Assembly: GCA_041914905.1 (NCBI GenBank) | Contig: JAYSCL010000001.1 | Coordinates: 43,917-107,916 of the forward strand | Direction of reading: 5' to 3' | Length of the DNA: 64,000 nt | Origin: Enterobacterales bacterium | GTDB lineage: Bacteria > Pseudomonadota > Gammaproteobacteria > Enterobacterales > Permianibacteraceae | Shown: positions 35,363 through 54,476 of the stretch, piece after piece | Numbering within the stretch: the stretch's first letter is position 1 | Layout: every line of letters begins with the position of its first letter | Position numbers and translations under genes: made by a program | Notes under the pieces: model-generated | The model's database searches: none | The model's input: only the letters and a program-made list of their open reading frames with translations | Told to the model about the DNA's origin: nothing

Positions 35363-36271
35363 TCAGATACTTGCATATTTGTTCTCGTAAAGCGCTTGCG
35401 CTTTCCGTCGAATCATTTCGCGATCAACCAGCTTATCAAGCCAGCGTTGGGGGATAGCCGCAACACCGTAAAACGCGCCAGCAAGTTGGCCGGTAATTGC
35501 AGCCGTAGTATCGGTGTCTTCACCAAGGCTAATCGCTTTTAGAATGGCGTCCTCAAAATTGCTTGTAGTGGCAACACACCAAAGCGAGGCTTCCAGTGAA
35601 TGAAGAACATAGCCCGAACTTTCAATGGCTTCCATCGATTTGGTACGCCAATCGCCGCGCACAATGCAGCGCAACTTGTCTGTGCTTGGCGTGAAGCTGG
35701 CATTGCTGAGCACCTGTTCCTTCGTTTCACCGCGTAGTGCACGAATCAGATGTTCAACATAAACCTGACAAGCTTCCAAACATTCGGTCGCACCGTGTGT
35801 AGTTTTGGAACTCAACGTAGCAAATTCGCGCGCCGCATTTAAGTCTTCGCAAAAATACATCGCGATCGGGGCCAGCCGCATCAAACTGCCGTTGCCTGCA
35901 GTGTTCGGATTGTTGCTGCCGGCATACGCCACACCGTTAGCGATGTACTGGCGTAAAGCCGTTGCCGTTGTCATGCCAATATCAAAACAGCGCCCGTTGC
36001 TGCTTAGGTAACCGTAATTCATCCAATTGCAGTAGCGGTTCATCTGATCAACCGGATCAAAGCTTTTGCAATACAATAAGCTTTCAGCAAGGCAAAGCGC
36101 CATTGATGCATCGTCGGTCCATTCACCGGGGCCGAGATCGAAGGGTCCACCACCAACCATTTCTGTGGGCGTTTCAAATGCGAAACGCTCACGAAATTCA
36201 ACTTGTGCGCCTAAAGCATCACCACAAGCAAGGCCAAGTAAACAGCCTTCGAAGCGTTCAATCATGTCCAC
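35363..36271 (-). CDS. ADP-ribosylglycohydrolase (ARH/DraG family).
   Basis: The N-terminus ERFEGCLLGLACGDALGAQVEF and the block GEWTDDASMAL are ARH-family signatures. Confidence 0.75.
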   Translation of the reverse strand: MDMIERFEGCLLGLACGDALGAQVEFRERFAFETPTEMVGGGPFDLGPGEWTDDASMALCLAESLLYCKSFDPVDQMNRYCNWMNYGYLSSNGRCFDIGMTTATALRQYIANGVAYAGSNNPNTAGNGSLMRLAPIAMYFCEDLNAAREFATLSSKTTHGATECLEACQVYVEHLIRALRGETKEQVLSNASFTPSTDKLRCIVRGDWRTKSMEAIESSGYVLHSLEASLWCVATTSNFEDAILKAISLGEDTDTTAAITGQLAGAFYGVAAIPQRWLDKLVDREMIRRKAQALYENKYASI

Positions 36272-36276
36272 TTGAT

Positions 36277-37050
36277 TTATGCTCCACTGGTAATCGTGCG
36301 CGGAAAAAAGTGTTGGCGCGTGCCATCTTTTAATCGAAACAGCTGGGCCGGACGATTAGCACCACCGCGCACGGCACCCACGATTTCTTCGAGAATCGCT
36401 GCATCATTAATACGACGACGAAAGGCGCTTTTATCAATGGGGCGACCGAGAATGATCTCGAAGGTTTTTTGCAAATCGCCCAACGTAAATTGCTCTGGTA
36501 ACAGGTGCACCGGCAGGGCGCTGTACTCGGTTTTGGCGCGCAATCGTTGCAAAGCATTTTCAAGCAGCAGGTCATGATCAAATGCGAGTGTTGCTGACAC
36601 GGCGTTGTCCGTGATCGGAAACCAGGCGACCGCATCGCTGTTACCACCTACCGACAGATCAATGGCATCACTATTGATCAGCGCAAAATACACCACCGTC
36701 ACCGACCAACCGCGTGGATCGCGTTGCTTATTGCCAACCGTCATCAACTGCTCGACATAGGGGCTGGCGACACCGGTTTTTGTTTTGAGGATACGCAGTG
36801 CGGCGGCGTCTAAATCGGCATCTTCTTGTAATCGAATAAACCCGCCAGGCAACGCCCACTTTCCCAATGCCGGATGATCGTTGCGTTTGACCAGCAGCAC
36901 CTGTAGTTGAGTGTCCTTGACCGTAAAGATCACCGTATCGACGGTCGTTAATGGCGCATCAAAGACTTTGGGGTCATAGCTGCGCAAAAATTCGCTTTCA
37001 CTTAAGGTCGTGGACATGCTGATAGGCTTGTTGAAATAAGATAGTTGCAT
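36277..37050 (-). CDS. nrtR: Nudix-related transcriptional regulator (NrtR type): a Nudix ADP-ribose-binding domain plus a C-terminal winged helix. The start is uncertain; the ORF extends to 37125.
   Basis: The Nudix box reads GKWALPGGFIRLQEDADLDAAALRILKTKTG. It has a C-terminal wHTH-like tail. It is divergent from the pncA-pncB-nadE operon and sits upstream of the ARH and macro genes. Confidence 0.6.
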   Translation of the reverse strand: MQLSYFNKPISMSTTLSESEFLRSYDPKVFDAPLTTVDTVIFTVKDTQLQVLLVKRNDHPALGKWALPGGFIRLQEDADLDAAALRILKTKTGVASPYVEQLMTVGNKQRDPRGWSVTVVYFALINSDAIDLSVGGNSDAVAWFPITDNAVSATLAFDHDLLLENALQRLRAKTEYSALPVHLLPEQFTLGDLQKTFEIILGRPIDKSAFRRRINDAAILEEIVGAVRGGANRPAQLFRLKDGTRQHFFPRTITSGA

Positions 37051-37118
37051 ATTGCCACTAACAGGATTAGAGTACAAGCATAGTTTTACAGAGCAACTAA
37101 GTATTAAAGGGGAGCACC

Positions 37119-37778
37119 ATGGCAAACATCATGTTGGGACTAAAAGCCCATACCGCTTGCTTCGATGTCGACGCGCAGTACACCTTTACACCGGTTTGCC
37201 CACAAGAGTTACCCGTACCTGGCGGTGATGAGATTGCAGCGGAACTTAATGCTCAAGCCCAGTTCGCGGCCGTTCGGGTCGGATCAAAAGACGCCCACTC
37301 ACCTCACGCCGTTTGGGTTGCCGATGAAAAGCATCCGCAATTTTCACCGGTAGCTGGTGACAACGTTGACATCCACTGGGTGCAACACGCGGTGCCCGGT
37401 AGCAAGGGTTTTGAGTTACTGGCGACCTTGCCACACCCAGCCGATTACGACTTTTTTGTTTGGAAGGGTGTTGAGCTCGATATGCATCCTTACGGTGCGT
37501 GTTACCACGATCTGCGTGATCGCTTGAGCACCGGCGTCATTGAGTACCTGAGAGCACATCAGATCCAAACGGTTATCGTTGGTGGCTTGGCAACCGATTA
37601 CTGTGTCAAAACTACGGTCATGCAATTACGCCGTGCCGGATTCGAGGTGGTGGTCAATTTGGGTGCCTGCCGCGGCATTAACAAAGACACCATCGACGCC
37701 GCTATCAAGGAAATGAAGAACGCCGATGTGCGCTTTGTTGCAACCGCGGCAGAGTTACAAAATCTGATCGCGGCGTAA
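37119..37778 (+). CDS. pncA: Nicotinamidase (isochorismatase family).
   Basis: The isochorismatase-family layout is present, with a catalytic Cys in VIVGGLATDYCVKTT. It is first in the NAD-salvage operon. Confidence 0.75.
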   Translation: MANIMLGLKAHTACFDVDAQYTFTPVCPQELPVPGGDEIAAELNAQAQFAAVRVGSKDAHSPHAVWVADEKHPQFSPVAGDNVDIHWVQHAVPGSKGFELLATLPHPADYDFFVWKGVELDMHPYGACYHDLRDRLSTGVIEYLRAHQIQTVIVGGLATDYCVKTTVMQLRRAGFEVVVNLGACRGINKDTIDAAIKEMKNADVRFVATAAELQNLIAA

Positions 37779-37794
37779 TTTGGGGTAACAGAAA

Positions 37795-38961
37795 ATGATT
37801 ATCGAATCGCTGCTTGATACCGACTTATACAAATTCACCATGATGCAAACGGTGTTGCATCAATTTCCATCGGCTCAGGTGGAGTACCGCTTTAAATGCC
37901 GCAATGCCGGTATCGATCTTAAAACGCTGGTTCCTGTGATTGAGCAAGAGCTTGATCACTTGTGTCAGCTGCGTTTTCAGCCGGAAGAGCTCGATTATTT
38001 AACGACATTGCGCTTTCTGAAATCTGATTTCATCGACTTTTTGCGTTTGTTCCAACTGAACCGTGACTACGTGCAGATCACGACCGATCCCGAATTCGAC
38101 ATCGTCATTCGTGGCCCATGGCTTCACACCATATTGTTTGAGATCCCGCTGCTGGCGATTGTTAACGAGAGCTACTTCCGTCATACACAGCCCAACGCGA
38201 ATTATGACGAAGGACGTCAGCGTCTTAAGCGAAAGATCGATTTGGTCAAAAACTTGAAGCCATATGACCGCTTCCAGTTTTCGGATTTTGGTACTCGCCG
38301 CCGCTTCAATCGGCGGTGGCACTACGAGGTGGTTGATCGCCTAATCGCTGAACTACCTCATCAGTTAACTGGCACCAGCAATGTGCATTTGGCGCGAACA
38401 AGAAAAATCAAACCGATCGGCACGATGGCACACGAGTTTTTGCAGGCCTGCCAGGCCTTGGGCGTGCGACTGGCCGATTCGCAAAAGTTTGCACTTGAAA
38501 CCTGGGTCAAAGAATACCGTGGCGATTTGGGTATTGCCCTGACCGATGTATGCGGTATTGATGCGTTTTTACGTGACTTCGATCTTTACTTCTGCAAATT
38601 GTTTGACGGTGTGCGTCACGATTCTGGCGATCCGTTTATCTGGGGCGAAAAGGTGTTGGCGCATTATCAAAGCATGCGTATTGATGCTCGCAGCAAAACC
38701 TTTGTGTTCAGCGACGGTTTGACGTTTCCACTCGCGCTTGAACTCTACAACCGATTTAAGGACCGCACCAACACCGCGTTTGGCATTGGCACCAACTTGA
38801 CCAATGACATGGGTTACGAAGCGCTCAATATCGTAATCAAAATGACCGAATGTAATGGCCAGCCGGTCGCAAAGCTAAGCGACTCACCCGGAAAAACGAT
38901 GTGTCGCGATGAAACTTATCTAGCGTACTTACGCAAAGTATTCCAAGTTGGCATCGAATAA
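37795..38961 (+). CDS. pncB: Nicotinate phosphoribosyltransferase.
   Basis: The N-terminus [21 protein letters not shown] and the ~390-aa length match PncB. Confidence 0.85.
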
Positions 38962-38975
38962 TAGGGAAGAAGAAC

Positions 38976-40673
38976 ATGAAAATTTTAATGGTACAATGCA
39001 ATTTCACCGTTGGTGATTTCTCGGGTAATAAACAGAAGATCATGGACATCATTTGGCGCCATGGTCACGACCACGATTTGATCGTGTTTTCGGAGTTGTG
39101 TTTATCGGGCTACTACCCGATGGATCTGATTCATCAACCGGGTTTTTTAGCCGCACAACACGATGTGATCGGTGAGCTAAGGATCGCCACACAATCGTTA
39201 AAAGCCGCGATCGTGATTGGCTTTATCGATCAGAACCATTGGACCGGCAAAGCGCATCACAATGGCTTGATGGTGTTAGCCAAGGGCGTCACCCAACTTG
39301 TCTATCACAAGCGATTGTTGCCCACTTACAACATCTTTGATGAAGCACGCCATTTTGAGCCAGGCAATCTGCCCGGCATGTTAATGCTAAATGGCGTGCG
39401 CATCGGTTTTGCGATCTGTGAAGACTTGTGGAATGACGATGAAGATGGCGACTACGCGATGATGCCGATTAAATTGTTGGCGCGTGACAATCCCGACTTT
39501 ATTGTCAGCATTAACGCATCGCCGTCGAATTTGCATAAACACAGCGAGCGTCTGGTCCGTTTCCAAAAGCTCAGCGCGAAGTATCAGATCCCGTTGGTGT
39601 ATGTGAATCAAGTGGGTGGCAACGATGAGATTGTGTTTGATGGCAATAGCTTTGTAACCGATGAGAAAGGTCAGCTGCGCGTTCAACTGAAAGCATTTGC
39701 TGAAGATGAGGCCTCGATTGAGTTCAATACTGAACAGGGATTTCGGACACTGACCGAGGCCAAGTTCAACGCACCAACGGATGCTGAGTTTTACTACCAG
39801 CAAATTGTTATGGGCTTACGTGACTACGTGGAAAAGTGTGGTTTCCGTTCCGTTGTTGTCGGCTCTAGTGGTGGTATCGATAGCGCGCTGACATTAGCCC
39901 TCGCTCGCGATGCTTTAGGTGCCGAGCATGTCGCCGCGATCACGATGCCTTCACGCTACTCGTCACAAGGCAGCGTTGGTGATTCCGAAATTCTGTGTCG
40001 CAATCTTGGCATTAAATTGTTTAATGCGCCGATTGAAGCGCAGTTTAAACAAGCCACCAATGACTTCACCGCAGCATTTGGTCATGCGCCATCACGATTG
40101 ACGCAAGAGAATATGCAGGCGCGTATTCGTGGTCGTATCTTGATGGAGTATTCCAATCATCACGGCAACCTGGTGTTGTCGACCGGCAATAAAAGCGAAA
40201 TGTCGGTTGGTTACGCCACCTTGTATGGTGATATGAACGGTGGACTGAATTTGATTGGTGACCTATACAAAATGGAAGTGTATGCGTTGGCGCGTTATTT
40301 CAATGAAAGACACGGACGCGAATTAATTCCGCAATCGATTATTGATAAGGCGCCTTCTGCCGAATTGTTCGAAGGTCAAACCGATCAGGACTCATTGCCG
40401 CCTTATCCGGTGCTCGATGCGATTTTGCGTTTGTATGTCGAACGTGATTTGTTGATCGCTCAAGAGATTGAAGACAACAGCGCGTTGATCGCGCGTTATC
40501 CTGATGTCGATATTGATCGTGTATTACGCATGGTCGATATCGCCGAATTTAAACGTCGGCAAGCACCACCGATTATTCGTGTGCACAAAAAATCGTTCGG
40601 TATCGGCCGTCGAATTCCGATAGCCAAACAATGGACAAGCCCTGCGGATGCTGTGGTGATTCAACATGGTTAA
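38976..40673 (+). CDS. nadE: Glutamine-dependent NAD+ synthetase (a nitrilase domain fused to an NAD-synthetase domain).
   Basis: It has an N-terminal CN-hydrolase domain. The C-terminal PP-loop reads VVVGSSGGIDSALTLAL. It is 565 aa. Confidence 0.85.
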   Translation: MKILMVQCNFTVGDFSGNKQKIMDIIWRHGHDHDLIVFSELCLSGYYPMDLIHQPGFLAAQHDVIGELRIATQSLKAAIVIGFIDQNHWTGKAHHNGLMVLAKGVTQLVYHKRLLPTYNIFDEARHFEPGNLPGMLMLNGVRIGFAICEDLWNDDEDGDYAMMPIKLLARDNPDFIVSINASPSNLHKHSERLVRFQKLSAKYQIPLVYVNQVGGNDEIVFDGNSFVTDEKGQLRVQLKAFAEDEASIEFNTEQGFRTLTEAKFNAPTDAEFYYQQIVMGLRDYVEKCGFRSVVVGSSGGIDSALTLALARDALGAEHVAAITMPSRYSSQGSVGDSEILCRNLGIKLFNAPIEAQFKQATNDFTAAFGHAPSRLTQENMQARIRGRILMEYSNHHGNLVLSTGNKSEMSVGYATLYGDMNGGLNLIGDLYKMEVYALARYFNERHGRELIPQSIIDKAPSAELFEGQTDQDSLPPYPVLDAILRLYVERDLLIAQEIEDNSALIARYPDVDIDRVLRMVDIAEFKRRQAPPIIRVHKKSFGIGRRIPIAKQWTSPADAVVIQHG

Positions 40674-41019
40674 TGAAACTGTCACGCTGTTTCGTCCCAC
40701 CGGACCGAATGAGCTCAAATTGGTTGAACAAAGTGGTTTTCGGCGTTGGCCACCACGGTTACCGGAGCAGCCGTTTTTTTATCCGGTAACCAATGAGCAA
40801 TACGCCGCCGAAATTGCACGCAACTGGAACGTTAAAGACAGCGGTTCCGGTTACGTCACGCGCTTTCAAGTGAAGAAAGCGTTTATGGATCGCTATCAAG
40901 TTCAAACCGTTGGCGCCCGCCACCACACCGAGTGGTGGGTACCGGCAGAGGAGTTGGAAGCATTAAATGACAATATTGTTGGACTCATCGAAGTGATCGG
41001 TGAGTTCAAACGAGAATAA
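40666..41019 (+). CDS. Hypothetical 117-aa protein, translationally coupled between nadE and kptA.
   Basis: It overlaps the nadE stop by 8 nt. Its own 3' end overlaps the first kptA start at 41000. No motif was recognised. Confidence 0.35.
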   Translation: MVNETVTLFRPTGPNELKLVEQSGFRRWPPRLPEQPFFYPVTNEQYAAEIARNWNVKDSGSGYVTRFQVKKAFMDRYQVQTVGARHHTEWWVPAEELEALNDNIVGLIEVIGEFKRE

Positions 41020-41032
41020 CAACGGAAGAAGT

Positions 41033-41566
41033 ATGAAAGACGAGAAAGTCAGTAAATTTTTAAGTTATGTGCTGCGACACAAACCCGATGCCATTGGCTT
41101 GCAATTGGATGCCAATGGCTGGGTCGATGTTGAAGAGCTGCTGGATAATATGGCTTACGCCGATATGGCGATATCGATTGAGACACTGCAACGCATCGTG
41201 CGCGAAAGCGATAAACAGCGATTTGCCTTTAGTGAAGATGGCGCACGAATTCGCGCCAATCAGGGGCACTCCATAAATGTTGATTTGGCATTGCCCGATC
41301 GAGAACCGCCCGCCGAGCTCTTTCATGGCACGGCAACACGCTTTTTGGAATCTATCAGGAAGGACGGTTTGATTCCGCGCTCACGCCATGCCGTTCATCT
41401 GTCAGCCAATTACGAAACTGCACTCAATGTTGGTCAGCGCCATGGCAGCCCGGTTGTACTGCGTATCGCTTCGGGAAAAATGTTTTCAGCGGGATTTCGT
41501 TTTCAGTGTTCAGAAAACGGTGTCTGGCTTACCGAAAAAGTGCCCGCCGAATTTATTTCGGTCTGA
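41033..41566 (+). CDS. kptA: RNA 2'-phosphotransferase KptA/Tpt1. An alternative start lies at 41000.
   Basis: The sequence is close to E. coli KptA throughout (SKFLSYVLRHKPDAIGLQLDANGW...RANQGHSI...LFHGT...RHAVHLSA...GQRHGSPVVL...ENGVWLT). It has a GGAAGAAG Shine-Dalgarno before the ATG at 41033. Confidence 0.85.
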   Translation: MKDEKVSKFLSYVLRHKPDAIGLQLDANGWVDVEELLDNMAYADMAISIETLQRIVRESDKQRFAFSEDGARIRANQGHSINVDLALPDREPPAELFHGTATRFLESIRKDGLIPRSRHAVHLSANYETALNVGQRHGSPVVLRIASGKMFSAGFRFQCSENGVWLTEKVPAEFISV

Positions 41567-41591
41567 CTGATTATTTTTAAGGAAAATAGTA

Positions 41592-42203
41592 TTGAATCTT
41601 GTAACTCAACTCTATGTTGAGCAATTAAAACACTGGCCTGAGTCCGGCCAACATATCATGGCTCAGTTTGATGAACACTCCATTATTGTTTATCAGGCTT
41701 ACCGACCAGCCATTGCGGAATACGCCGTACAGCATCAACAATTCGGTGGTGAGTTTAGTTTTGCTCGCATGAGTTGGATAAAACCAAACTTTTTGTGGAT
41801 GATGTTTCGCTCCGGCTGGGCCAACAAACCCGGGCAAGAACATATTCTTGCCATTCGCTTACGCCGGCAGTTTTTTGATGAATTATTGTCGAACGCCGTG
41901 GCGTCAACATTTGATACTAAAAAATTTGAGAACCGGGAAAGCTGGAAGGCTTCAGTCGAAAATTCCGAAGTAAGACTGCAATGGGATCCGGATCATGATC
42001 CCTTTGGTGCACCAATTACCAGACGCGCAATTCAACTCGGGCTGCGTGGTGAAATGCTAAAACGATTTGCTACAACTGCGCTTTTAAGCGTCGAAGACAT
42101 AACCGATTTTGTGCGAATGCAATCTCGACAGTTAGAAAGTGGCATCCAAAATTTGGTAGTTCCTATTGAAACCAGCTACAGCGGACCCGTTATTGGCCTG
42201 TGA
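41592..42203 (+). CDS. Conserved hypothetical protein, last gene of the NAD-salvage/kptA operon. No function was recognised.
   Basis: A 203-aa ORF with coding-like composition lies 25 nt after kptA. The start is uncertain (a TTG, or the internal Met at 41658). Confidence 0.4.
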   Translation: MNLVTQLYVEQLKHWPESGQHIMAQFDEHSIIVYQAYRPAIAEYAVQHQQFGGEFSFARMSWIKPNFLWMMFRSGWANKPGQEHILAIRLRRQFFDELLSNAVASTFDTKKFENRESWKASVENSEVRLQWDPDHDPFGAPITRRAIQLGLRGEMLKRFATTALLSVEDITDFVRMQSRQLESGIQNLVVPIETSYSGPVIGL

Positions 42204-42237: not shown

Positions 42238-42429
42238 TCAGTTTACGGGGTGTGGACAGTAGTACTTGAGAGTGACCTGCATGCTCGTTACACGGTTGGT
42301 GCCAAAGAAGACGTAGTCGTTTGCCGCCTTTGAATCCTCACGCTCAAACGCAATGTTCTTCGACAAATCGGTTAGCGACTTCTTTATCTCCAATGGCGCA
42401 TGCGACCCTTCGATGTATAAGGTGGTCAT
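42238..42429 (-). CDS. Small hypothetical protein coupled to the DUF3010-like gene.
   Basis: The 63-aa ORF starts with an ATGA overlap onto the stop of the upstream gene at 42426. Confidence 0.3.
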   Translation of the reverse strand: MTTLYIEGSHAPLEIKKSLTDLSKNIAFEREDSKAANDYVFFGTNRVTSMQVTLKYYCPHPVN

Positions 42430-42854
42430 TTTTTAGCCGCTTGCTTTGCCAAAGCTGCGCAGGCTGTACGGAATGCCTCCTCTTGGTATTTGTTCAGCGA
42501 ATCAGGAGAAGGGAAATCATGCTTGCGAGCCTGTGCGGCAATAGTCTGAGCAGATAGCAGTTCGACTTGTATTTCTTTGAGTAGCTGAAAGACCCCCTCA
42601 ATCTTGAAGGTTGTGGGGCCTCCTGCGTATTCTCCGTTCTTCGCACGCATCTTGATGACCACGTGGGAGACCTTGTTGTCTCGAAGGAACCCAGCAACAA
42701 GATCTGCAAATGACTGAACGTTGGCGGCTTTATCGTCGTCTGCCAGTGTAATTCGCTTGGTCGCGGTGGAGATGTAGTTGAACTGTCCCTCCGCCAACTC
42801 GGTGACGGCGAAGATAGCTTCGCTGCCCTTGATCTCAACGCCGCAAACTCGCAT
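42426..42854 (-). CDS. DUF3010-like hypothetical protein.
   Basis: A 142-aa ORF. The family assignment is from memory of an N-terminal pattern resembling MRVCGVEIKGSEA.... Confidence 0.35.
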   Translation of the reverse strand: MRVCGVEIKGSEAIFAVTELAEGQFNYISTATKRITLADDDKAANVQSFADLVAGFLRDNKVSHVVIKMRAKNGEYAGGPTTFKIEGVFQLLKEIQVELLSAQTIAAQARKHDFPSPDSLNKYQEEAFRTACAALAKQAAKK

Positions 42855-42905
42855 AGAAGGCTCCTAGAATGTCTAACGTTATGCCGTCGTGCGCGCAAAA
42901 TGCGA

Positions 42906-44852
42906 TCACTGGTTGGGCCAATCCGCTGGAACAAGTGCAGGTGGCTTGGTCCACGGCTCCTCAACCAGCGCATCCTGAAACCACTGATCGCGCAGGTTCG
43001 CATGCTCAGTGACAATTAGTTGGAAACCTGGAACATCGTTCTGGGTGAACTTTAGCAACAAGTCGAACAGCCGGCGCACAGCATCTAGGTCGGCGTCGGC
43101 TTCCGTCTTCTGCACCGAACCATCAGCATCCCTATAAACCTGCTCAGAGGGGAAATAGACCTGGGTTGGTTGGTCGATCAACAGGAAGCGCGGAATCGGA
43201 CGGTTGTTCTGTGCCGCGAATAGATGCAGGGCGAGCAATGCTGACAGGTGGTAGGCCAGATGGTTCTCGCCGCCACCGGTCCTGCCCATCGACACAGGAC
43301 GCTCGGGTCGATCGAAGATTATTGTCAATTGCGGCAGGTTGAGCCGCGCAGGGTAAGGACCGAATTCGGCGTTGAACTTTTGGATGTATCGCGACACCTG
43401 TGCGGAGATGTTGTTGAGGATCGATGTCAGGCGTTCGCTGCTGTCGTCAGCACCGATCTGCTCCTCAAGCTGCTTCACTTTGTTGCTGAGACGGCGATTC
43501 TCTGCTTCCAGTTTGGCAAGATCCTCATTCGGGAGGAGCGTTTCTAGGAACAGGCTGATACGGCCGACCACGCGCGCGGCCGCGTTGTTGCGGGTTCCCA
43601 TCTGGGCGATGAATTCATTGGCCGAGATCGCCGCGGATAGCTCCGCTTCCTTCTGCTTGATATCGCCTGCGATCCCATCCGCTTTGCCTGTTAATTCGGC
43701 AAGGTAGGCTTCGAGCTTGGGGCGCTGGCCGCTGGCAATGCGCAACTCATTTTCGAGCGATTCCAATTCATTGAGCAAGACGATGGCGACTGGGGATTCC
43801 AGCGCCAAGTTCTGCTCGCTGAACGGCCATTGCCATTCGCCGCTGTCTGGATTCTTCGGCAGTGCCTTGATTGAGGCCAGCCGGTCTATCTGTTCGGCGG
43901 CCTCATTTTCGTAGCCGCCAGCCCGCTTGGCGAACTGTCGTGCCGCGTCAATCCGGGCCTGCGTATCTCGGCGATCCTGACGCAGTTGGGCCAGCTCATC
44001 TTCCAGAAACGAGACCCGGCTGCCGTCGTCGTCTGGCACGGTTTCGGGATTCCACGACAGCGCCAACCTCAAGGCATCAATGATCCCGTCGGTATTCGAG
44101 TTCTCGTCGGTGTTGCGGATGACCCCGACCGTTTTGGCTTCTGAGTAGAGGCCGATAGCCTGTACATGCGACGTGTCGACGGCGTCGCGCGCCTGCTCCA
44201 GCTTCTTGTTGCTAATCCTCAGATCGCGCTGCGCTAAGCGCAGCTTGGATTCCAACTCGTAACGATCGTGAGAGGAGACGCCAAGCAAGATTGGCAACGT
44301 GTCGCGGATCGCTTGCGGTTGAAACTGCTCGTTCTGGCGATAGAAAAGTTGATCCTTGTTGGCGACAAGCCCCTGCTTCTGGAACAGGTAATAGAACGTG
44401 TGCTTGACGTTCGCGTCGTAGCTATCTCGACTGTGCTCAAGAGCGACTTCGGTGCGGTTCTCGGGAATTCCAAGCAAGCGCGACAGCAGTTCGACAATGC
44501 TGTCATCGTCAGTGTTGACCGCCAGATCCTTGAACTCGGGCACCTGCAATTGGGCCCCCCTTCGCAACATTGCCGTGCTGCAACTGGCGCCACCCCCGGG
44601 CGGGGTCGGCTTGGCAACCAGCACCTGTTCTTTCTCGAACTGGTAGATCACGGCGAACCAAGACACTTTGTCACGGATGATGCCTTCCGGAACGTTGAAC
44701 GACGAGCGTCCCATGCAGTATTCGATAATCTCGGAGAGCGCAGACTTGCCGGTGGAGGAGCGGCCGGTGATAACGTTGAGTCCGTCTACCTTGAACCGGA
44801 GGTCACGGCGCTGGCTGCCATGGCTGTAGATGTGGATAGATCTGATCTTCAT
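42906..44852 (-). CDS. SMC-like ABC ATPase of a three-component ABC (ABC-3C) conflict system (DUF3732-like).
   Basis: The N-terminal Walker A reads NVITGRSSTGKSALSE. A long coiled-coil middle region follows. The C-terminal Walker B/D-loop reads FLLIDQPTQVYFP. Its start overlaps the stop of the upstream gene. Confidence 0.6.
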   Translation of the reverse strand: MKIRSIHIYSHGSQRRDLRFKVDGLNVITGRSSTGKSALSEIIEYCMGRSSFNVPEGIIRDKVSWFAVIYQFEKEQVLVAKPTPPGGGASCSTAMLRRGAQLQVPEFKDLAVNTDDDSIVELLSRLLGIPENRTEVALEHSRDSYDANVKHTFYYLFQKQGLVANKDQLFYRQNEQFQPQAIRDTLPILLGVSSHDRYELESKLRLAQRDLRISNKKLEQARDAVDTSHVQAIGLYSEAKTVGVIRNTDENSNTDGIIDALRLALSWNPETVPDDDGSRVSFLEDELAQLRQDRRDTQARIDAARQFAKRAGGYENEAAEQIDRLASIKALPKNPDSGEWQWPFSEQNLALESPVAIVLLNELESLENELRIASGQRPKLEAYLAELTGKADGIAGDIKQKEAELSAAISANEFIAQMGTRNNAAARVVGRISLFLETLLPNEDLAKLEAENRRLSNKVKQLEEQIGADDSSERLTSILNNISAQVSRYIQKFNAEFGPYPARLNLPQLTIIFDRPERPVSMGRTGGGENHLAYHLSALLALHLFAAQNNRPIPRFLLIDQPTQVYFPSEQVYRDADGSVQKTEADADLDAVRRLFDLLLKFTQNDVPGFQLIVTEHANLRDQWFQDALVEEPWTKPPALVPADWPNQ

Positions 44853-45337
44853 GGACGAATCCCGAAAGTCGTATAAACGGTCGCCCGATCGGCGATGCGT
44901 GCAAATTCCTTTCCGACGATCCGCGCCACTTTCTGGCAGGCGACGGTTTCGGCGGTTCCATCGATGCTCTTGCGGACCTTTCTTGATACGGTCTGGATGC
45001 GGCCATCGTCCGCGACGGTGATGCAGCCTCTTTCCATCAGTAAACCGAACCCCTCGAAGGCATACGGCAGTATCTGCGTAACCCGGTCGGCGAAGCCCAC
45101 CATGATTTGCTGGTTCTTCTCTACGGTCTTGAGCAGGTAGCTGCGTGGACTGCTGGCGATCACCTCGCGCGAATCCTTATGCAGGCACAGGGGCAGCACA
45201 AGCAGCGACAGCGAGAATGGCATGCCGCGAGCGTCTTCTTCCTCGTAGCCGTGCAGGGCGCGGAACAAGACCAAGCCACAAAAGGCAGGATTGAACAGGT
45301 TCCGAATTTCAAAGGGGCGCTGATCCCATCGCTTCAC
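44849..45337 (-). CDS. ABC-3C middle-component protein.
   Basis: A 162-aa ORF sits between the effector and the ABC ATPase with ATGA-type overlaps at both ends. The size is typical of ABC-3C middle components. Confidence 0.5.
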   Translation of the reverse strand: MKRWDQRPFEIRNLFNPAFCGLVLFRALHGYEEEDARGMPFSLSLLVLPLCLHKDSREVIASSPRSYLLKTVEKNQQIMVGFADRVTQILPYAFEGFGLLMERGCITVADDGRIQTVSRKVRKSIDGTAETVACQKVARIVGKEFARIADRATVYTTFGIRP

Positions 45338-46569
45338 GAGGCCTCCCCCAGGATCTTGCCAAGACGGTCGAGGAATCTGGGATGCCAGTAGACCTTGGGT
45401 TTGGGGGTGGAATCCGCCAGGATGTGGAAGCTGCCGCGAAGGACATAGGGTTCCGTCACCCGTGCACGAATGCGTAGAGATTCGATCTTTCCAGTCTCAA
45501 ATTCCGCCCAGTTATAGAGAGTCGCGCCGGCTTCGCGCAGTGCTTTTTCCGCGCTATCGTCCTTCAGCTTCTCGAAAGCGAAATCCTTGTAGCGGCCCCA
45601 CTCATCGGTGAGGCGGTCTTCGTACTCCTCGACCTCTCCCAACATAAGCAGGTTCTCGCGTGCCCAGGCCGATCGTTGTTCGAACGCTCGGTAATAATCC
45701 AGAATCGCGCTCCTGATCCGATTGGAGGAAATACCGATCTCACGCAGTTGCGCCACGAACAGGCGCGGATCTGTATCAGTGTCAATCTCATCGGCGGGCA
45801 GCTTTCCGCGGAAGGTGATAGGCAGGTTGTCCGCCTTGTATTCCTCGGCGAAGTTTGAGAGCTTGTCCGACACTTCGTAGCCGAAGATCCCTTCCGGCCT
45901 AGCTCCGGTCAAATGCTTGATCACGGCATCAGTCCACCAGCCCTCCAGCCGCTCGAAGACAAACTCGCGGTGCTCGCGCCGGATGGGCCGCATGTGCTTG
46001 TCTCTGATGAGCGCCGGGATGTCGTCTATGCGTGGGCTGCCATCGAGGATCAGGATGCGTCCGAGAAAGTCCTGCTTTTCGGGGTCACTTAGTTCGTTGA
46101 ACGCTGCGGCTGTCGGCGCGATGAGTTTCGATGTCGATTTGGCAAGCGCCGCATCGGCCAGTTCGGAGAGCGCTGCCGCATCACGCGAGGCGACAGGCTT
46201 ATCGGGGAGAAGAAGGGCAAGAAATGAGCCGGTGGACACCGTGCCAGTAGTGAACAGGAAGAACCGCATGTTCGATGCAGCGCGGCCATCCCGTTTGTAA
46301 CGCGCCAGCCAGATATTTACGGACTTCCAGAAATCGGTCGACAGGTCGGTCAAACTATCGCCAATCGCCTTGTGTTTGAGTGAGGCTAGGGACTTGCCAC
46401 CGCTACCGTCGATAAAGTCGAGGTCGTCGTCCTTTTCTAGGAAGATGGCAGTGTCTTCAGGCAATTGAAGCAGTTGCAGCAGCGCGAGACGTGCCTGGTA
46501 GATATATCCCAGCCCCTGCTCGCCGGCAGAGTATTGGTCAGTGGCTTTCCTTGTCATTGGTATAATCAC
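45334..46569 (-). CDS. ABC-3C effector component with an N-terminal Cap4-like (DUF4297) restriction-endonuclease-fold nuclease domain.
   Basis: The N-terminus GLGYIYQARLALLQLLQL...FLEKDDDLDFIDGSG...KHK shows a G-x-x-YQ start and a D...EK...K pattern. It is the first gene of the three-gene operon. Confidence 0.45.
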   Translation of the reverse strand: MIIPMTRKATDQYSAGEQGLGYIYQARLALLQLLQLPEDTAIFLEKDDDLDFIDGSGGKSLASLKHKAIGDSLTDLSTDFWKSVNIWLARYKRDGRAASNMRFFLFTTGTVSTGSFLALLLPDKPVASRDAAALSELADAALAKSTSKLIAPTAAAFNELSDPEKQDFLGRILILDGSPRIDDIPALIRDKHMRPIRREHREFVFERLEGWWTDAVIKHLTGARPEGIFGYEVSDKLSNFAEEYKADNLPITFRGKLPADEIDTDTDPRLFVAQLREIGISSNRIRSAILDYYRAFEQRSAWARENLLMLGEVEEYEDRLTDEWGRYKDFAFEKLKDDSAEKALREAGATLYNWAEFETGKIESLRIRARVTEPYVLRGSFHILADSTPKPKVYWHPRFLDRLGKILGEAS

Positions 46570-47011
46570 CCCTTAGCATCGACACGCCATCGACGACGAT
46601 ACATTCTCTCCGTCATAACGTGAGTTCGGCCCCCGAGTAGGGGCGTTTTCTCACGCCTTTTAGGTGGATATATCCGGTTTCGATGATTGTAAGTGCCCGA
46701 TTTAATTCGACCTCACCAGAAATAGGGTCGATTAGGGCTCAAAAGGATAGGCGCCTTGGACGGCAAACTTAAGCTACTCCGGCTTGGTCGACAAGAGCCG
46801 CATTTCCGTTCTCACAGATATCAACTCGACCGTCTGCTTCTGGCCGATAGGCGACATTCAAGCCTTAATATATATGCTGTAGGCATTTTATGTGTTGCGA
46901 TAAAATGGTAGTTCGCGAAGGCTGTTTGCTACAACATCAATCATCCATAAATTTACAAAAGCATCGGAAAAGCCGAAAAATCGCCAAGAATAGATTTTTG
47001 TTGTTAAATAA

Positions 47012-47110
47012 TTGATAAATATGGAAAAGGCCCTTTCGGGCCTTTTCATTTAGACGTCTATTTCCATTAATTGTGAGATTTATTTCCACATTCTGTGAGA
47101 TCCCACACTT
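47012..47110. repeat. Truncated copy of the MITE-like element, abutting the gyrB stop codon at the right boundary of the island.
   Basis: It is about 95 bp and near-identical (1 substitution, 1 small indel) to 15566-15666. It includes the same GGCCCTTTCGGGCCTTTT hairpin and the TTCCATTAATTGTGAGATTTATTTCCAC block. Confidence 0.55.
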
Positions 47111-47113
47111 ATG

Positions 47114-50657
<3,544 letters not shown>

Positions 50658-50728
50658 CTTGCTCGCATTCAGTTTGGCAGAAAGCAAAAACGGCAGACTG
50701 AGCTGCCGTTTTGGTCAATATTCATTGT

Positions 50729-51829
50729 TTACAACCGCATTGGCATCACAAGATACAGTGTACCGCTACTGCCCTGCTCTTCAGCCAAGGCTGAACTACT
50801 CGAATCAAGCAGCACAAAGCGTATGGATTCCCATCGAACGGCGTTAACAATATCCAGCAGATAATTCACGTTAAAACCGATCTCAAGGTCACCTGCGGAG
50901 TAATCGGCATCGACAACAACCTCCGCTTCTTCCTGCTCGGGGTTATTGGCAGTCAATTTGAGCACACCGGTACTGAGGTTCAACCGAACGCCGCGAAATT
51001 TCTCATTGCACAGAATGGCCACGCGACCCAAGGCTTCCTTCAACACTTCGCGATTGATGACCAGGTATTTGTCGCCATTACGTGGGATCACACGCTCATA
51101 TTCCGGAAACTTACCGTCAACGAGCTTCGACACAAAGTGATAATGTTCGGTTTGGATGCGAATATGGTTGCTACCAACGCTGATACGGATACTGGCATCG
51201 CTCGGTTCCAACAAACGCAGTAACTCAAGCACGCCTTTGCGCGGAATAATGACACCGAACTCTTCGCTACTATCAATGGCCTGCTTCGCGTCAGCAAGCG
51301 CCAGACGATGACCATCGGTGGATACCGTGCGCAAACGACCAGCTTTCAGTTCCAGAAACAAACCATTCATGTAATAGCGCACATCGCCTTGCGCGATGGC
51401 AAACTGCGTACGCTCCAATAAAGAGCGCAACTCCACTTGCGGCAGTTCAAAGCTCACGGTACCGACACCTTCTTCCAACGCCGGAAATTCCGCAGCGGGC
51501 AAGGTCGTCAACGTAAAACGGTTGTTACCGGAACGCAGCAATACCTTGTTTTCTTGCAAGCTGAAATTCAACTGGGCGGTATCAGGCAACGATTTCACGA
51601 TATCGAGCAATTTACGCGCAGGCACTGAAATCTCGCCCGGTTCGGCATTATCGAGCGGTACTTGCGCTTTCAATTCCACTTCGAGATCGGTGCCGGTCAT
51701 CAATAAACCTTGTTCTGTAACGGCTAACAGTACATTGCTCAAAATAGGCAATGTGCCTTTACGTTCAACGGCACCACATACCAACGATAACGCTGGAAAT
51801 AATTGTTCACGGGTTAACGAAAATTTCAT
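50729..51829 (-). CDS. dnaN: DNA polymerase III beta sliding clamp.
   Basis: The N-terminus MKFSLTREQLFPALSLVCGAVERKGTLPILSNVLL and the 366-aa length match DnaN. Confidence 0.95.
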   Translation of the reverse strand: MKFSLTREQLFPALSLVCGAVERKGTLPILSNVLLAVTEQGLLMTGTDLEVELKAQVPLDNAEPGEISVPARKLLDIVKSLPDTAQLNFSLQENKVLLRSGNNRFTLTTLPAAEFPALEEGVGTVSFELPQVELRSLLERTQFAIAQGDVRYYMNGLFLELKAGRLRTVSTDGHRLALADAKQAIDSSEEFGVIIPRKGVLELLRLLEPSDASIRISVGSNHIRIQTEHYHFVSKLVDGKFPEYERVIPRNGDKYLVINREVLKEALGRVAILCNEKFRGVRLNLSTGVLKLTANNPEQEEAEVVVDADYSAGDLEIGFNVNYLLDIVNAVRWESIRFVLLDSSSSALAEEQGSSGTLYLVMPMRL

Positions 51830-51855
51830 GATGAGCGCTTTTAGGTCATTAAGTT

Positions 51856-53208
51856 TTAGGCGGACAGTATACGTAACAAATTCGCGTAATCTTCGGTCAT
51901 GCTGCGATCACTGTCACGCAATTCTTTCACTTTACGGCAGGCATGCAGCACCGTCGTGTGATCTTTGCCACCAAACGATTCACCGATCTCCGGCAAAGAA
52001 TGATTGGTCAATTCTTTGGCCAAGGCCATGGCTACTTGCCGTGGGCGAGCGATTGAGCGTGAACGCCGTTTAGACATCAGATCGGACAATTTAATGCGGT
52101 AATACTCCGCGACGGTTTTCTGAATATTCTCTATCGTCACCATCTTTTCTTGCGCTGCAATTAAATCGCGCAACGCATCTTTGACCAGCTCGACTGTAAT
52201 CGCATGACCGGTAAAACGGGCATAAGCGGTGACCTTATTCAATGCGCCTTCCAGTTCACGGACATTGGAACGGATTCGTTTACCAATAAAAAACGCAACG
52301 TCTTGTGCCAGCTGCAAACCTTGCTTTTCCGCTTTGGCTTGCAAGATCGCGACACGCGTTTCCAAATCGGGGGGTTCGACAGCAACGGTTAAGCCCCAAC
52401 CAAAACGCGACTTCAAGCGATCATCGAGGTTGGCGACTTCTTTTGGATACTGATCACACGTCAAAACGATCTGACCATTGGACTCAAATAACGAATTGAA
52501 ATTATGAAAAAATTCTTCCTGCGAAAAATCTTTACCGGCCAAAAACTGAATATCATCGACCAACAAGCAATCCACTGAACGATAATTACGTTTGAATTGT
52601 TCAATAGTGTTTGTCTGCAATGCTTTGACCATGTCTTGCACATAACGCTCAGAACGTACGTAAACGACTTTGGCACCCGGACGATTTTTTTCGATGTAAT
52701 TGCCAATTGCCTGCATCAAATGGGATTTACCCAAGCCACTGGCACCATAGATAAACAACGGGTTGTAGGACTTCACCGGATTCTGTGCAACTTGCATTGC
52801 GGCGGCTTTGGCAACTTGATTTGATTTGCCTTCGACGAAATTATCGAAGACAAAATTAGGGTCAAGATTGCTGCGATGAGGCAAAGTCACCGGTTCGGCT
52901 ACGGCGCGAGGCAATTCAGCTACGGGCTTTTGCGTCACGGCGGTTTGGGCTGGTCGAACGGTGGTGGCCTGACGGCTATCGCCGACCATGACAAGGACCA
53001 CCGGTGCTTTGTCACCCTTGTTTTGCACCAACACATCCCGGATACGGGAGCTAAATCGTTCACGCACCCAATCCGCGACAAAACGATTCGGTGCAAACAA
53101 ACGCAATTCGGTTTCTGATTCCGTGGCCTGCAGTGGTCGAATGTACATACCAAACTCGTCCGGTTTGAGTTCGTCTTGCAAACGTTGCAGGCAGAGATTC
53201 CAGAGCAT
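51856..53208 (-). CDS. dnaA: Chromosomal replication initiator DnaA.
   Basis: The N-terminus [28 protein letters not shown] is DnaA-like. The AAA+ motif reads [20 protein letters not shown]-terminal DnaA-box-binding domain is present. Confidence 0.95.
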
Positions 53209-54089: not shown

Positions 54090-54101
54090 ACCCACTAAGG
54101 T

Positions 54102-54476
54102 TTGGCGTCGATGGCAGCCTTCGCTTTTCCGAAAGCTGCCCGACTGTTACAACCGGCGGAATTCGAGTTCGTTTTTGCTAAGGCAGAAAGGCACTCGGCC
54201 GCCGGTTTAACCGTTTTGGCGCGAGCAAACGGTTTGTCCTCGGCACGCTTAGGTCTAGCAGTTGCCAAAAAAAATATTCCGAACGCTTCACAGCGCAATC
54301 GCCTGCGACGACTGGTTCGAGAATACTTTCGCTGCCACCGATCCCAATTGCCGGCCTGCGATCTGATTTTCATGGCGCGCGCAGGCAGCGACAAACTCGA
54401 CAATGCCGCCATTGTTGCGGCATTGACCCGCTGTTTTGGTGGTGTCATCAAAAATTCCGCTTTATCAGGATCTTAA
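54102..54476 (+). CDS. rnpA: RNase P protein component.
   Basis: The protein reads AFAFPKAARLLQPAEFEFVF...RLGLAVAKKNIPNASQRNRLRRLVRE and follows rpmH. Confidence 0.85.
   Translation: MASMAAFAFPKAARLLQPAEFEFVFAKAERHSAAGLTVLARANGLSSARLGLAVAKKNIPNASQRNRLRRLVREYFRCHRSQLPACDLIFMARAGSDKLDNAAIVAALTRCFGGVIKNSALSGS

What the first reader, a model, noticed from the sequence alone, without database searches (positions are those of the whole stretch)
42906..46569. A three-gene ABC-3C-type defence operon: Cap4-like (DUF4297) nuclease effector, middle component, SMC-like ABC ATPase.
The gene order effector-MC-ATPase, with ATGA overlaps at both junctions, matches the three-component ABC systems predicted by comparative genomics as NTP-dependent anti-phage systems. 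The 648-aa ATPase has an N-terminal Walker A, a coiled-coil and a C-terminal Walker B/D-loop. The 411-aa first gene starts with a GYIYQ...EKDDD...K segment, as in Cap4-type restriction-endonuclease-fold effectors of CBASS. Few such systems have been tested experimentally. The ~450-bp AT-rich leader upstream (46570-47010) may hold its promoter.
Basis: partly seen in the sequence, partly recalled or inferred. Interest (0 to 1): 0.6.

Follow-up and report, generated by a model that had tools for sequence, protein, structure and literature searches.

The report
Type II Lamassu anti-phage defence operon
This is an intact copy of Lamassu (also called ABC-3C or DdmABC), a well-studied three-gene bacterial defence system that senses foreign DNA and releases a DNA-cutting enzyme, so it is a correct but ordinary finding.

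Summary
The three overlapping minus-strand genes are real and intact. They are lmuA (45334-46557, 407 aa from the likely ATG start), lmuC (44849-45337) and lmuB (42906-44852).

- **Family searches:** Pfam gives CTD7, MC3 and DUF3732/LmuB_C at E 1e-41 to 1e-52. PADLOC gives LmuA, LmuC and LmuB at 9e-74, 2e-15 and 2e-133.
- **Solved structures:** All three proteins match the cryo-EM structures of Salmonella LmuACB and Vibrio cholerae DdmABC.
- **Nuclease domain:** The Pfam Cap4_nuclease (DUF4297) model does not hit this LmuA directly. It does hit 44 of 100 family representatives. A pLDDT-95.7 AlphaFold model retrieves LmuA first, then Cap4, HerA-DUF4297, Avs3 and Hachiman nucleases. E41, D45 and K61 are invariant.
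- **Classification:** ABC-3C is type II "short" Lamassu with a Cap4 effector, now mechanistically well characterised, so "few tested" is outdated.
- **Corrections:** One junction is GTGA, not ATGA. No convincing promoter was found in the leader.
- **Origin:** The 3.7-kb cassette has 57% GC against 50% for the window. It is 89-92% identical in DNA to copies in alpha-, beta- and gammaproteobacteria, often as cargo of integrative conjugative elements. Here it sits bare, just after the gyrB terminator near the replication-origin gene cluster.

Verdict: new member of a known kind; low interest.

The parts
45334..46557 (-). lmuA, the effector gene (407 aa from ATG 46557; the longest ORF starts at GTG 46569)
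   Evidence: ORF. PADLOC LmuA PDLC03848 at 8.7e-74 over residues 10-403. Homologues and an independent gene call are 407 aa. A family profile matches V. cholerae LmuA 9nxx_A at 7.8e-41 and Salmonella LmuA 9hqu_C at 2.2e-37, both full length.
45823..46557 (-). LmuA N-terminal Cap4-type PD-(D/E)xK nuclease domain (about aa 1-245)
   Evidence: The AlphaFold2 model has pLDDT 95.7. Foldseek ranks LmuA structures first (4e-16), then HerA-DUF4297, Cap4 (6vm5, 7yia, 6wan, 6vm6), Avs3 and Hachiman HamA. 44 of 100 family representatives hit Pfam PF14130 Cap4_nuclease. This protein gives no direct hit.
46375..46437 (-). Predicted nuclease active-site residues: E41 (46435-46437), D44-D45 (46423-46428), S59-L60-K61 (46375-46383), in 407-aa numbering
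   Evidence: E41, D45 and K61 are invariant in 128 diverse family members. Position 59 is Q in 109 and S in 17, including this clade. K61 aligns with Salmonella LmuA K68, the catalytic lysine mutated in Li et al.. It is the counterpart of V. cholerae K57.
45364..45759 (-). LmuA C-terminal domain CTD7, the sequestration and tetramerisation domain
   Evidence: Pfam PF20283 at 2.3e-41. Foldseek to CTD-only chains gives 9hr5_D TM 0.80 and 9hqu_C TM 0.69. Its role comes from the solved structures.
44849..45337 (-). lmuC, the middle component (162 aa, GTG start, GTGA overlap with lmuA)
   Evidence: Pfam MC3 PF20131 at 5.7e-51, full length. PADLOC LmuC at 1.6e-15. Weak sequence matches to solved LmuC chains at E 0.04-0.07. 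Junction read.
42906..44852 (-). lmuB, the SMC/Rad50-like ABC ATPase sensor (648 aa, ATGA overlap with lmuC)
   Evidence: PADLOC LmuB PDLC03859 at 2.2e-133. Pfam DUF3732/LmuB_C at 4e-52 on residues 459-639. Full-length alignments to Salmonella LmuB 9hqu_A (1e-51) and V. cholerae LmuB 9ny5_D (1e-41).
44742..44765 (-). LmuB Walker A, GRSSTGKS (aa 30-37; K36 aligns with K40 of the Salmonella and V. cholerae proteins)
   Evidence: The K40 mutants abolish defence.
43821..43850 (-). LmuB coiled-coil apex (PDSGEWQWPF, aa 335-344), aligned to the Salmonella CxxC zinc hook but without cysteines
   Evidence: Alignment. No CxxC anywhere in LmuB, which has only 2 Cys. Hook-less short Lamassu are known, including V. 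cholerae.
43170..43280 (-). LmuB signature-like loop TGGGEN (aa 525-530, 43263-43280) and deviant Walker B FLLIDQ (aa 556-561, 43170-43187)
   Evidence: The Walker B D-Q form is the short-Lamassu consensus hhhhD[Q/S/T/E]. Salmonella S536 aligns to G527 here.
42878..46598 (-). Extent of the horizontally shared cassette, defined by DNA similarity to other genomes
   Evidence: blastn gives 92.2% identity to Gallaecimonas over 46598-42878. It gives 88.9-89.1% to P. aeruginosa and Thalassospira copies over about 46533-42916. There is no similarity outside these limits. GC is 57-58% against 50.4% for the window.
46599..47023 (-). Non-conserved leader between the gyrB terminator and the cassette; promoter not located
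   Evidence: It has no similarity to the upstream regions of other copies. There is no Rfam hit, no flanking repeat and no ORF over 53 aa. The scan found no sigma-70-like site on this strand here.
47024..47047 (-). Intrinsic-terminator-like hairpin of gyrB (context, not part of the system)
   Evidence: It has a 10-bp stem with 6 GC pairs. The gyrB stop is at 47114.

Best explanation
The locus is an intact type II, 'short' Lamassu defence system with the gene order lmuA-lmuC-lmuB. It is the same as the ABC-3C class with a Cap4-nuclease/CTD7 effector and an MC3 middle component, and the same architecture as V. cholerae DdmABC and Salmonella LmuACB.

The mechanism below is inferred by homology and was not shown here:
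1. Two LmuB SMC-like ATPase protomers and one LmuC hold a single LmuA through its CTD7 domain. This keeps the nuclease monomeric and inactive.
2. The LmuB heads and LmuC bind double-stranded DNA ends or aberrant replication structures of phages or plasmids. ATP binding and slow hydrolysis by the Walker B D-Q ATPase contribute to this step.
3. LmuA is released and tetramerises through CTD7.
4. Two N-terminal Cap4-type PD-(D/E)xK domains pair to form an active site using E41, D45 and K61.
5. The active nuclease cuts DNA with little sequence specificity. This aborts the infection or eliminates the plasmid.

The cassette is foreign to this chromosome. It is a widely transferred three-gene module that landed immediately downstream of gyrB.
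For: Shown here:
- The three ORFs are intact and translationally coupled.
- Pfam gives CTD7 at 2e-41, MC3 at 6e-51 and DUF3732 at 4e-52.
- PADLOC gives LmuA at 9e-74, LmuC at 2e-15 and LmuB at 2e-133.
- All three proteins match chains of solved Lamassu complexes.
- The LmuA AlphaFold model (pLDDT 95.7) is closest to LmuA, then to Cap4-type nucleases.
- 44 of 100 family representatives hit Pfam Cap4_nuclease.
- E41, D45 and K61 are invariant in 128 relatives, and K61 aligns with the catalytic K68 of Salmonella LmuA.
- LmuB has Walker A GRSSTGKS and the short-Lamassu Walker B FLLIDQ.
- dN/dS is 0.06-0.15 for all three genes.
- Foreign origin is supported by GC of 57% against 50% and by 89-92% DNA identity confined to the three genes.
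- Close copies lie in integrative conjugative elements of Thalassospira and beside an integrase in P. aeruginosa.
- The 90%-identity clusters span many genera.

From the literature:
- The A1B2C1 sequestration complex, DNA-end sensing, the LmuA tetramer and the catalytic Lys and Walker A mutants come from PMC12663957, 10.1101/2025.03.14.643221 and 10.1101/2025.06.23.660979.
Against: - No activity, complex formation or expression was measured.
- The proteins are distant from the characterised ones. LmuA shows 16-21% identity in structural alignments, and LmuC matches solved LmuC only at E about 0.05.
- The Pfam Cap4_nuclease model does not hit this LmuA directly.
- The (D/E/Q) position of the xK motif is Ser59, where 85% of relatives have Gln.
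- The LmuB residue aligned to the Salmonella signature serine S536 is Gly527 within TGGGEN. That serine is needed for head engagement and defence in Salmonella.
- There is no zinc hook.
- No promoter was identified.
Confidence: 0.88

Rival explanations
1. The cassette works mainly as an anti-plasmid or inter-element competition module. On this reading it is cargo that conjugative elements carry to exclude rival plasmids, and phage defence of the host is secondary. It uses the same molecular machinery but has a different biological role.
For: Close copies (88-91% protein identity) sit in the cargo slot between traG and trbB of integrative conjugative elements in Thalassospira. In P. aeruginosa they sit beside an integrase and ParB/DUF932 genes. 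One related copy at 77% DNA identity is on a conjugative plasmid. V. cholerae DdmABC eliminates plasmids as well as phages.
Against: In this window no mobility gene accompanies the cassette. Characterised homologues protect against phages. The two roles do not exclude each other.
Confidence: 0.2
2. This clade works differently at the LmuB step. It lacks the zinc hook and has Gly where the signature serine aligns, so ATP-dependent head engagement or dimerisation may be altered or dispensable. Its trigger could then differ from DNA ends.
For: TGGGEN replaces GSG(S/A)N, and Salmonella S536 aligns to G527. There is no CxxC. All four copies compared keep these features.
Against: V. cholerae LmuB also lacks a hook and is active. 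T525 lies two residues before the aligned position and could serve as the signature hydroxyl after a one- or two-residue shift of the loop. Walker A, Walker B and the H-loop are intact. Strong purifying selection acts on lmuB, with dN/dS of 0.07-0.10.
Confidence: 0.1
3. The operon is a silent or decaying remnant in this genome, acquired but not expressed or not functional.
For: No promoter-like site was found between the gyrB terminator and lmuA. The adjacent DUF3010-kinase module is visibly decayed, with the kinase cut to 63 aa.
Against: All three ORFs are full length and match orthologue lengths. Catalytic and ATPase motifs are intact. dN/dS is about 0.1. The consensus scan is crude, and read-through from gyrB is possible.
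Confidence: 0.07
4. It is a Rad50/SbcC-type DNA-repair ATPase module rather than an immune system.
For: LmuB shows weak hits to Rad50, SMC_N and AAA_23. Lamassu is proposed to derive from SbcCD.
Against: There is no Mre11/SbcD partner. Instead the partners are the Lamassu-specific MC3 and CTD7 proteins. The best matches by far are LmuB models and structures. The cassette shows foreign GC and a mobile-element distribution.
Confidence: 0.01

Closest known systems
Vibrio cholerae DdmABC, also called Lamassu Vc-Cap4 (LmuA/DdmA, LmuC/DdmB, LmuB/DdmC; PDB 9nxx, 9ny5, 9nyg, 9uxh-9uxl)
   Same: It has the same three-gene order and the same domain set: a Cap4-type nuclease NTD with CTD7, an MC3 middle component, and a short LmuB of about 650 aa with Walker B D-Q. 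It also has no zinc hook. The catalytic Lys (K57 in V. cholerae, K61 here) and the Walker A Lys (K40 in V. cholerae, K36 here) are conserved.
   Different: The sequences are distant. LmuB matches at 1e-41. LmuA has 16-19% identity in structural alignment, and a single-sequence match of only 6e-6. Here the nuclease motif is S-x-K instead of Q-x-K, and the signature loop is TGGGEN instead of GSGAN. The genomic setting also differs: a bare cassette after gyrB rather than a pathogenicity island.
Salmonella enterica LmuACB (PDB 9hqu, 9hqx, 9hr5)
   Same: It is the best PDB match for LmuB (1e-51, full length). LmuA (profile 2e-37, Foldseek 4e-16) and LmuC also match. It belongs to the same NTD-Cap4/CTD7 + MC3 class. 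K68 aligns to K61 and K40 to K36.
   Different: Salmonella LmuB has a CxxC zinc hook that is required for defence, while this LmuB has none. The signature serine S536 aligns to Gly here.
CBASS Cap4 effectors (for example 6vm5, 6wan, 7yia) and other Cap4/DUF4297 nucleases (HerA-DUF4297 9c1m, Avs3 8dgc, Hachiman HamA 8zue)
   Same: They share the N-terminal PD-(D/E)xK nuclease fold and its activation by oligomerisation. Foldseek E-values are 3e-5 to 7e-3, and the family profile hits DUF4297 chains at 5e-5.
   Different: This locus has no SAVED/CARF sensor domain, no CD-NTase and no cyclic-nucleotide signalling. The nuclease is fused to CTD7 and controlled by an SMC-like complex.
Type I Lamassu (LmuA-LmuB, for example Bacillus)
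   Same: It has an LmuB SMC-like sensor and an LmuA nuclease effector released upon DNA-end sensing.
   Different: Type I lacks LmuC, whereas this locus has an MC3 LmuC.
Rad50-Mre11 / SbcCD
   Same: It has a split ABC ATPase head with a coiled-coil insertion, and it recognises DNA ends. It is the proposed ancestor of Lamassu.
   Different: This locus has no Mre11/SbcD nuclease. Its coiled coil is much shorter, its Walker B is deviant, and it has an immune effector.

Membership tests
Lamassu type II (short) / ABC-3C | LmuB: SMC/Rad50-like ABC ATPase with the LmuB_C (DUF3732) C-terminal head half | tested here: met
   Pfam PF12532 at 4e-52. PADLOC LmuB at 2.2e-133. Full-length alignment to solved LmuB at 1e-51.
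Lamassu type II (short) / ABC-3C | Walker A Gx4GK[ST] and the short-type Walker B hhhhD[Q/S/T/E]; LmuB of about 600 aa | tested here: met
   GRSSTGKS at 30-37 and FLLIDQ at 556-561 in a 648-aa protein. The criteria are taken from PMC12663957.
Lamassu type II (short) / ABC-3C | LmuC middle component present (its presence distinguishes type II from type I) | tested here: met
   Pfam MC3 PF20131 at 5.7e-51, full length. PADLOC LmuC at 1.6e-15.
Lamassu type II (short) / ABC-3C | LmuA with an ABC-3C C-terminal domain (CTD) that docks to LmuB and LmuC | tested here: met
   Pfam CTD7 PF20283 at 2.3e-41. The predicted CTD superposes on solved CTD chains at TM 0.69-0.80. Docking itself was not tested.
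Lamassu type II (short) / ABC-3C | Co-directional, tightly linked operon lmuA-lmuC-lmuB | tested here: met
   4-bp overlaps GTGA and ATGA. The same arrangement is seen in 8 other loci.
Lamassu type II (short) / ABC-3C | LmuB signature-motif serine for ATP-dependent head engagement (Salmonella S536) | tested here: inconclusive
   S536 aligns to G527 within TGGGEN. T525 lies two residues upstream and might substitute. The feature is conserved across this clade. It is a functional residue of one homologue, not a formal family criterion.
Lamassu type II (short) / ABC-3C | Zinc hook CxxC at the coiled-coil apex | tested here: not met
   There is no CxxC. This is not defining: short LmuB carry zero, one or two hooks, and V. 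cholerae has none.
Lamassu type II (short) / ABC-3C | Protection against phages or plasmids; A1B2C1 complex; DNA-end sensing; LmuA tetramerisation | not testable with these tools
   These require cloning, plaque and plasmid-stability assays and biochemistry. They are known for homologues.
Cap4_nuclease / DUF4297 (Pfam PF14130) domain | Match to the Pfam HMM | tested here: not met
   No hit for the full protein at E<=0.1, nor for residues 1-261 at E<=10. However, 44 of 100 homologous representatives do hit it, with a best E of 4.7e-9.
Cap4_nuclease / DUF4297 (Pfam PF14130) domain | Cap4-type PD-(D/E)xK fold with a conserved acidic/Lys active site | tested here: met
   The AlphaFold model has pLDDT 95.7. 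Foldseek hits LmuA, HerA-DUF4297 and Cap4 structures. The family profile hits DUF4297 PDB chains at 5e-5 and 3e-3. E41, D45 and K61 are invariant.
CBASS | CD-NTase cyclase plus an effector with a cyclic-nucleotide sensor (SAVED/CARF) domain | tested here: not met
   Neither domain occurs in the operon or its neighbours. Only the nuclease domain is shared.
Rad50-Mre11 / SbcCD repair complex | Mre11/SbcD phosphoesterase partner and long coiled coil with zinc hook | tested here: not met
   There is no such partner gene, no CxxC, and only sub-threshold Rad50/SMC_N matches.

The most novel reading that the evidence does not exclude
This particular Lamassu clade may not be just another DdmABC. Three observations leave room for that reading.

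- **Spread:** It travels as a bare 3.7-kb cassette with sharp ends, about 41 bp upstream and about 28 bp downstream of the genes. It has about 90% DNA identity across alpha-, beta- and gammaproteobacteria. No flanking repeats or recombinase are present here.
- **LmuB:** It lacks the zinc hook and has Gly at the position aligned to the signature serine.
- **LmuA:** It carries an S-x-K instead of Q-x-K nuclease motif.

The evidence does not exclude that the clade uses a different LmuB dimerisation or head-engagement mode, or a different trigger. It also does not exclude that the cassette moves by an unrecognised route.
Probability: 0.08. Interest if true: 0.4.

Novelty: new member of a known kind. 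Interest (0 to 1): 0.15.

Why it matters
It matters little beyond annotation. It adds one intact type II Lamassu to the defence repertoire of a poorly sampled gammaproteobacterium.

It also illustrates two points. First, a defence cassette can be dropped, without any mobility genes, directly behind gyrB in the conserved dnaA-dnaN-recF-gyrB cluster. Second, one Lamassu clade has spread almost unchanged across three proteobacterial classes, largely on integrative conjugative elements.

The clade's deviations are a hook-less LmuB, a TGGGEN signature loop and an S-x-K nuclease motif. These make it a reasonable comparison point for testing which features of the published Lamassu mechanism are general.

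Tried and rejected
1. **First AlphaFold run.** An alignment of 30 homologues at 86-91% identity gave an unusable model with pLDDT 36. The run was repeated with 128 diverse representatives and gave pLDDT 95.7.
2. **Direct Pfam search for DUF4297/Cap4_nuclease.** Nothing was found on the full protein or on the N-terminal 261 residues. This was resolved through family representatives, a profile search and fold search.
3. **NCBIfam.** There is no family-level model for any of the three proteins.
4. **Search for an empty site in a close relative.**
None of the 80 loci has Lamassu or DUF3010 after gyrB.
   - A scan of metagenome contigs with the variable part of GyrB reached only 51% identity.
   - The exact proteins occur only in two read-set assemblies and one unnamed NCBI assembly.
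   - The insertion is therefore inferred from GC content and cassette-limited similarity, not from an empty site.
5. **Flanking repeats, RNA families and small ORFs in the leader.** Nothing was found beyond chance.
6. **Promoter scan.** No credible site for lmuA was found.
7. **DUF3010 as a fourth component.** This was rejected. It is absent from all other copies, and its own homology block starts exactly where the cassette ends.
8. **Phage and plasmid collections.** There is no phage match, and only one plasmid match at 77% identity.
9. **Table S1 of Li et al.** This table lists the tested homologues but is not held, so I could not tell whether a member of this clade has been assayed.

Full report
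**Observation**

The window carries three co-directional minus-strand ORFs at exactly the coordinates given: 45334-46569 (411 aa), 44849-45337 (162 aa) and 42906-44852 (648 aa). Both junctions overlap by 4 bp. The first junction reads GTGA and only the second reads ATGA.

The first gene most likely starts at the ATG at 46557, giving 407 aa. Nearly all homologues are 407 aa. An independent gene call on identical DNA gives 407 aa. A Shine-Dalgarno-like AAGGGG lies 11 nt upstream of that ATG.

The three genes have 57-58% GC against 50.4% for the window.

**Family identity**

- Pfam assigns the C-terminus of protein 1 to CTD7 of ABC-3C systems (2e-41). It assigns protein 2 over its full length to ABC-3C middle component MC3 (6e-51). 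It assigns the C-terminal head of protein 3 to DUF3732 (4e-52), which the precomputed gene calls name LmuB_C.
- PADLOC models LmuA, LmuC and LmuB hit at 8.7e-74, 1.6e-15 and 2.2e-133.
- All three proteins match chains of the solved Lamassu complexes of Salmonella enterica (9hqu, 9hqx, 9hr5) and Vibrio cholerae (9nxx, 9ny5, 9nyg, 9uxh-9uxl). LmuB matches at 1e-51 and 1e-41 over its whole length.
- The literature equates ABC-3C with type II Lamassu and with DdmABC (10.1101/2025.06.23.660979; 10.1101/2022.05.11.491447).

**Nuclease domain**

Pfam PF14130, now named Cap4_nuclease, gives no hit on the whole protein or on its N-terminal 261 residues, even at E<=10. I therefore tested the claim in three other ways.

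1. A full HMMER scan of 1.84 billion representative proteins found 1,743 relatives. Of 100 full-length representatives at 30-61% identity, all 100 carry CTD7 and 44 hit PF14130, with a best E of 4.7e-9.
2. A profile of 128 relatives matches V. cholerae LmuA (7.8e-41) and Salmonella LmuA (2.2e-37) over the full length. It also matches two DUF4297 PDB chains at 5e-5 and 3e-3.
3. An AlphaFold2 model built on that alignment has mean pLDDT 95.7. A first attempt with only close homologues failed at pLDDT 36. Foldseek against the PDB ranks LmuA chains first (4e-16). These are followed by HerA-DUF4297, CBASS Cap4 (6vm5, 7yia, 6wan, 6wam, 6vm6), Avs3 and Hachiman HamA.

E41, D45 and K61 (407-aa numbering) are invariant in all 128 sequences. 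K61 aligns with the catalytic K68 of Salmonella LmuA, the counterpart of V. cholerae K57. Position 59 of the x-K motif is Ser in this clade and Gln in 109 of 128 relatives.

**LmuB**

- Walker A is GRSSTGKS (30-37), and K36 aligns with K40 of the studied proteins.
- Walker B is FLLIDQ (556-561). This is the deviant hhhhD[Q/S/T/E] form that defines short Lamassu.
- At 648 aa it is a short LmuB.
- It has no CxxC. The stretch aligned to the Salmonella zinc hook reads PDSGEWQWPF. V. cholerae LmuB also lacks a hook.
- The signature loop is TGGGEN where the two solved homologues have GSG(S/A)N. Salmonella S536, whose S536R mutant loses defence, aligns to G527. All four copies compared keep this loop.
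- I treat the signature loop as a clade peculiarity of unknown consequence.

**Selection and spread**

Against copies from P. aeruginosa, Gallaecimonas and Thalassospira, the proteins are 91-95% identical. dN/dS is 0.06-0.15 for each gene, so the genes are under purifying selection.

The DNA similarity of 89-92% is confined to the cassette, 46598-42878 at most, and stops within about 41 bp upstream and about 28 bp downstream of the genes.

Proteins 86-91% identical to this LmuA occur in alpha-, beta- and gammaproteobacteria. The 90%-identity clusters hold 271 LmuB and 56 LmuA sequences from genera such as Sphaerotilus, Xanthomonas, Delftia, Enterobacter and Maritimibacter.

In Thalassospira the cassette sits between traG and trbB of an integrative conjugative element. 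In P. aeruginosa it lies next to an integrase beside guaA. One related copy at 77% identity is on a conjugative plasmid, and none is in the phage collection.

**Setting in this window**

The cassette follows the dnaA-dnaN-recF-gyrB cluster. It begins about 425 bp after the gyrB terminator hairpin at 47047-47024.

That 425-bp leader has no counterpart upstream of other copies. It has no Rfam match, no flanking repeat and no meaningful ORF. It also has no sigma-70-like site on the right strand. The promoter therefore remains unlocated.

Directly downstream, homology to an unrelated DUF3010-kinase module starts at 42877, so DUF3010 is not a fourth component.

No mobility gene and no other PADLOC-recognised defence gene lies nearby. 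The one exception is a macro-domain protein with a DarG-like match.

I could not find a close relative with an empty site. Acquisition is therefore inferred from GC content and cassette-limited similarity.

**Mechanism (inferred by homology, not shown here)**

The steps follow PMC12663957, 10.1101/2025.03.14.643221 and 10.1101/2025.06.23.660979.

1. Two LmuB and one LmuC sequester one LmuA through CTD7.
2. The LmuB heads and LmuC bind dsDNA ends or phage replication structures, with slow ATP turnover.
3. LmuA is released and tetramerises through CTD7.
4. Paired Cap4 domains cut DNA with weak sequence preference.
5. This causes abortive infection or plasmid loss.

**Verdict**

The system is a new member of a well-characterised kind. 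Interest is low.

Noticed in passing
window 42238-42877 (-): DUF3010 (142 aa, 42426-42854) is an RNase H-like superfamily member per PMC3985635. It is followed, with a 4-bp overlap, by a 63-aa ORF (42238-42429). That ORF is the N-terminal remnant (57 aa, 68% identity) of a 364-aa Ser/Thr protein kinase, which in relatives (L172-L176) always follows DUF3010. This suggests a conserved two-gene DUF3010-kinase module of unknown function, decayed here. Its homology block starts at 42877, abutting the Lamassu cassette. In L172 and L173 it lies near NERD and HTH genes. It has no PADLOC hit.
   Followed up: partly
window 15843-26420 (-): This is a five-gene operon. It encodes a DUF4132 protein (1242 aa), an AAA_5 MoxR-like ATPase (365 aa), DUF5682 (812 aa), a CoxE-like VWA protein (376 aa) and a 732-aa protein with no Pfam match. 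The architecture is MoxR-vWA-centred and has no PADLOC hit.
   Followed up: no
window 32809-32879 (-): Rfam reports a tRNA-like match at 36.2 bits against a gathering score of 29, but ARAGORN finds no tRNA in the whole window. The match lies between rtcR (33147-34739, +) and the divergent SPFH/Band_7 (31401-32600) and RtcB (30114-31325) genes. It may be a tRNA-like element of an rtc-operon leader or Y-RNA-like transcript.
   Followed up: no
window 34845-42203: This cluster looks like an NrtR-type regulon for NAD salvage and ADP-ribose processing. It encodes a macro-domain protein (PADLOC DarG-like, 4e-17), ADP-ribosylglycohydrolase, NrtR (Nudix plus winged helix), PncA, PncB and glutamine-dependent NadE. 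These are followed by a 117-aa protein with no Pfam match (40666-41019), KptA/Tpt1 RNA 2'-phosphotransferase and DUF4291.
   Followed up: no
window 47114-53208 (-) and 54095-57607 (+): This is the replication-origin neighbourhood. dnaA (51856-53208), dnaN, recF and gyrB lie on the minus strand. ORFs at 54095-57607 (+) may be the rpmH-rnpA-yidC-mnmE group, judged by position and size only and not tested. A 41.8% GC trough at 53-54 kb may hold oriC. The recF and gyrB longest ORFs overlap because the listed gyrB ORF starts at an upstream TTG. The true GyrB probably starts at MTNEQ.
   Followed up: partly
whole window (host identity): The host appears to be a poorly sampled gammaproteobacterium. 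The best match in metagenome contigs was 51% over the variable region. The exact proteins of the window occur only in read-set assemblies SRR26835165 and SRR24079455 and in one unnamed NCBI assembly with a 249-kb contig.
   Followed up: partly
L084 793-4331: In one P. aeruginosa-type integrative element that carries the same Lamassu cassette, a CBASS-like set (patatin, CD-NTase and a DACNG/DACNH protein) sits about 6 kb upstream. The element's cargo region therefore acts as a small defence island.
   Followed up: no
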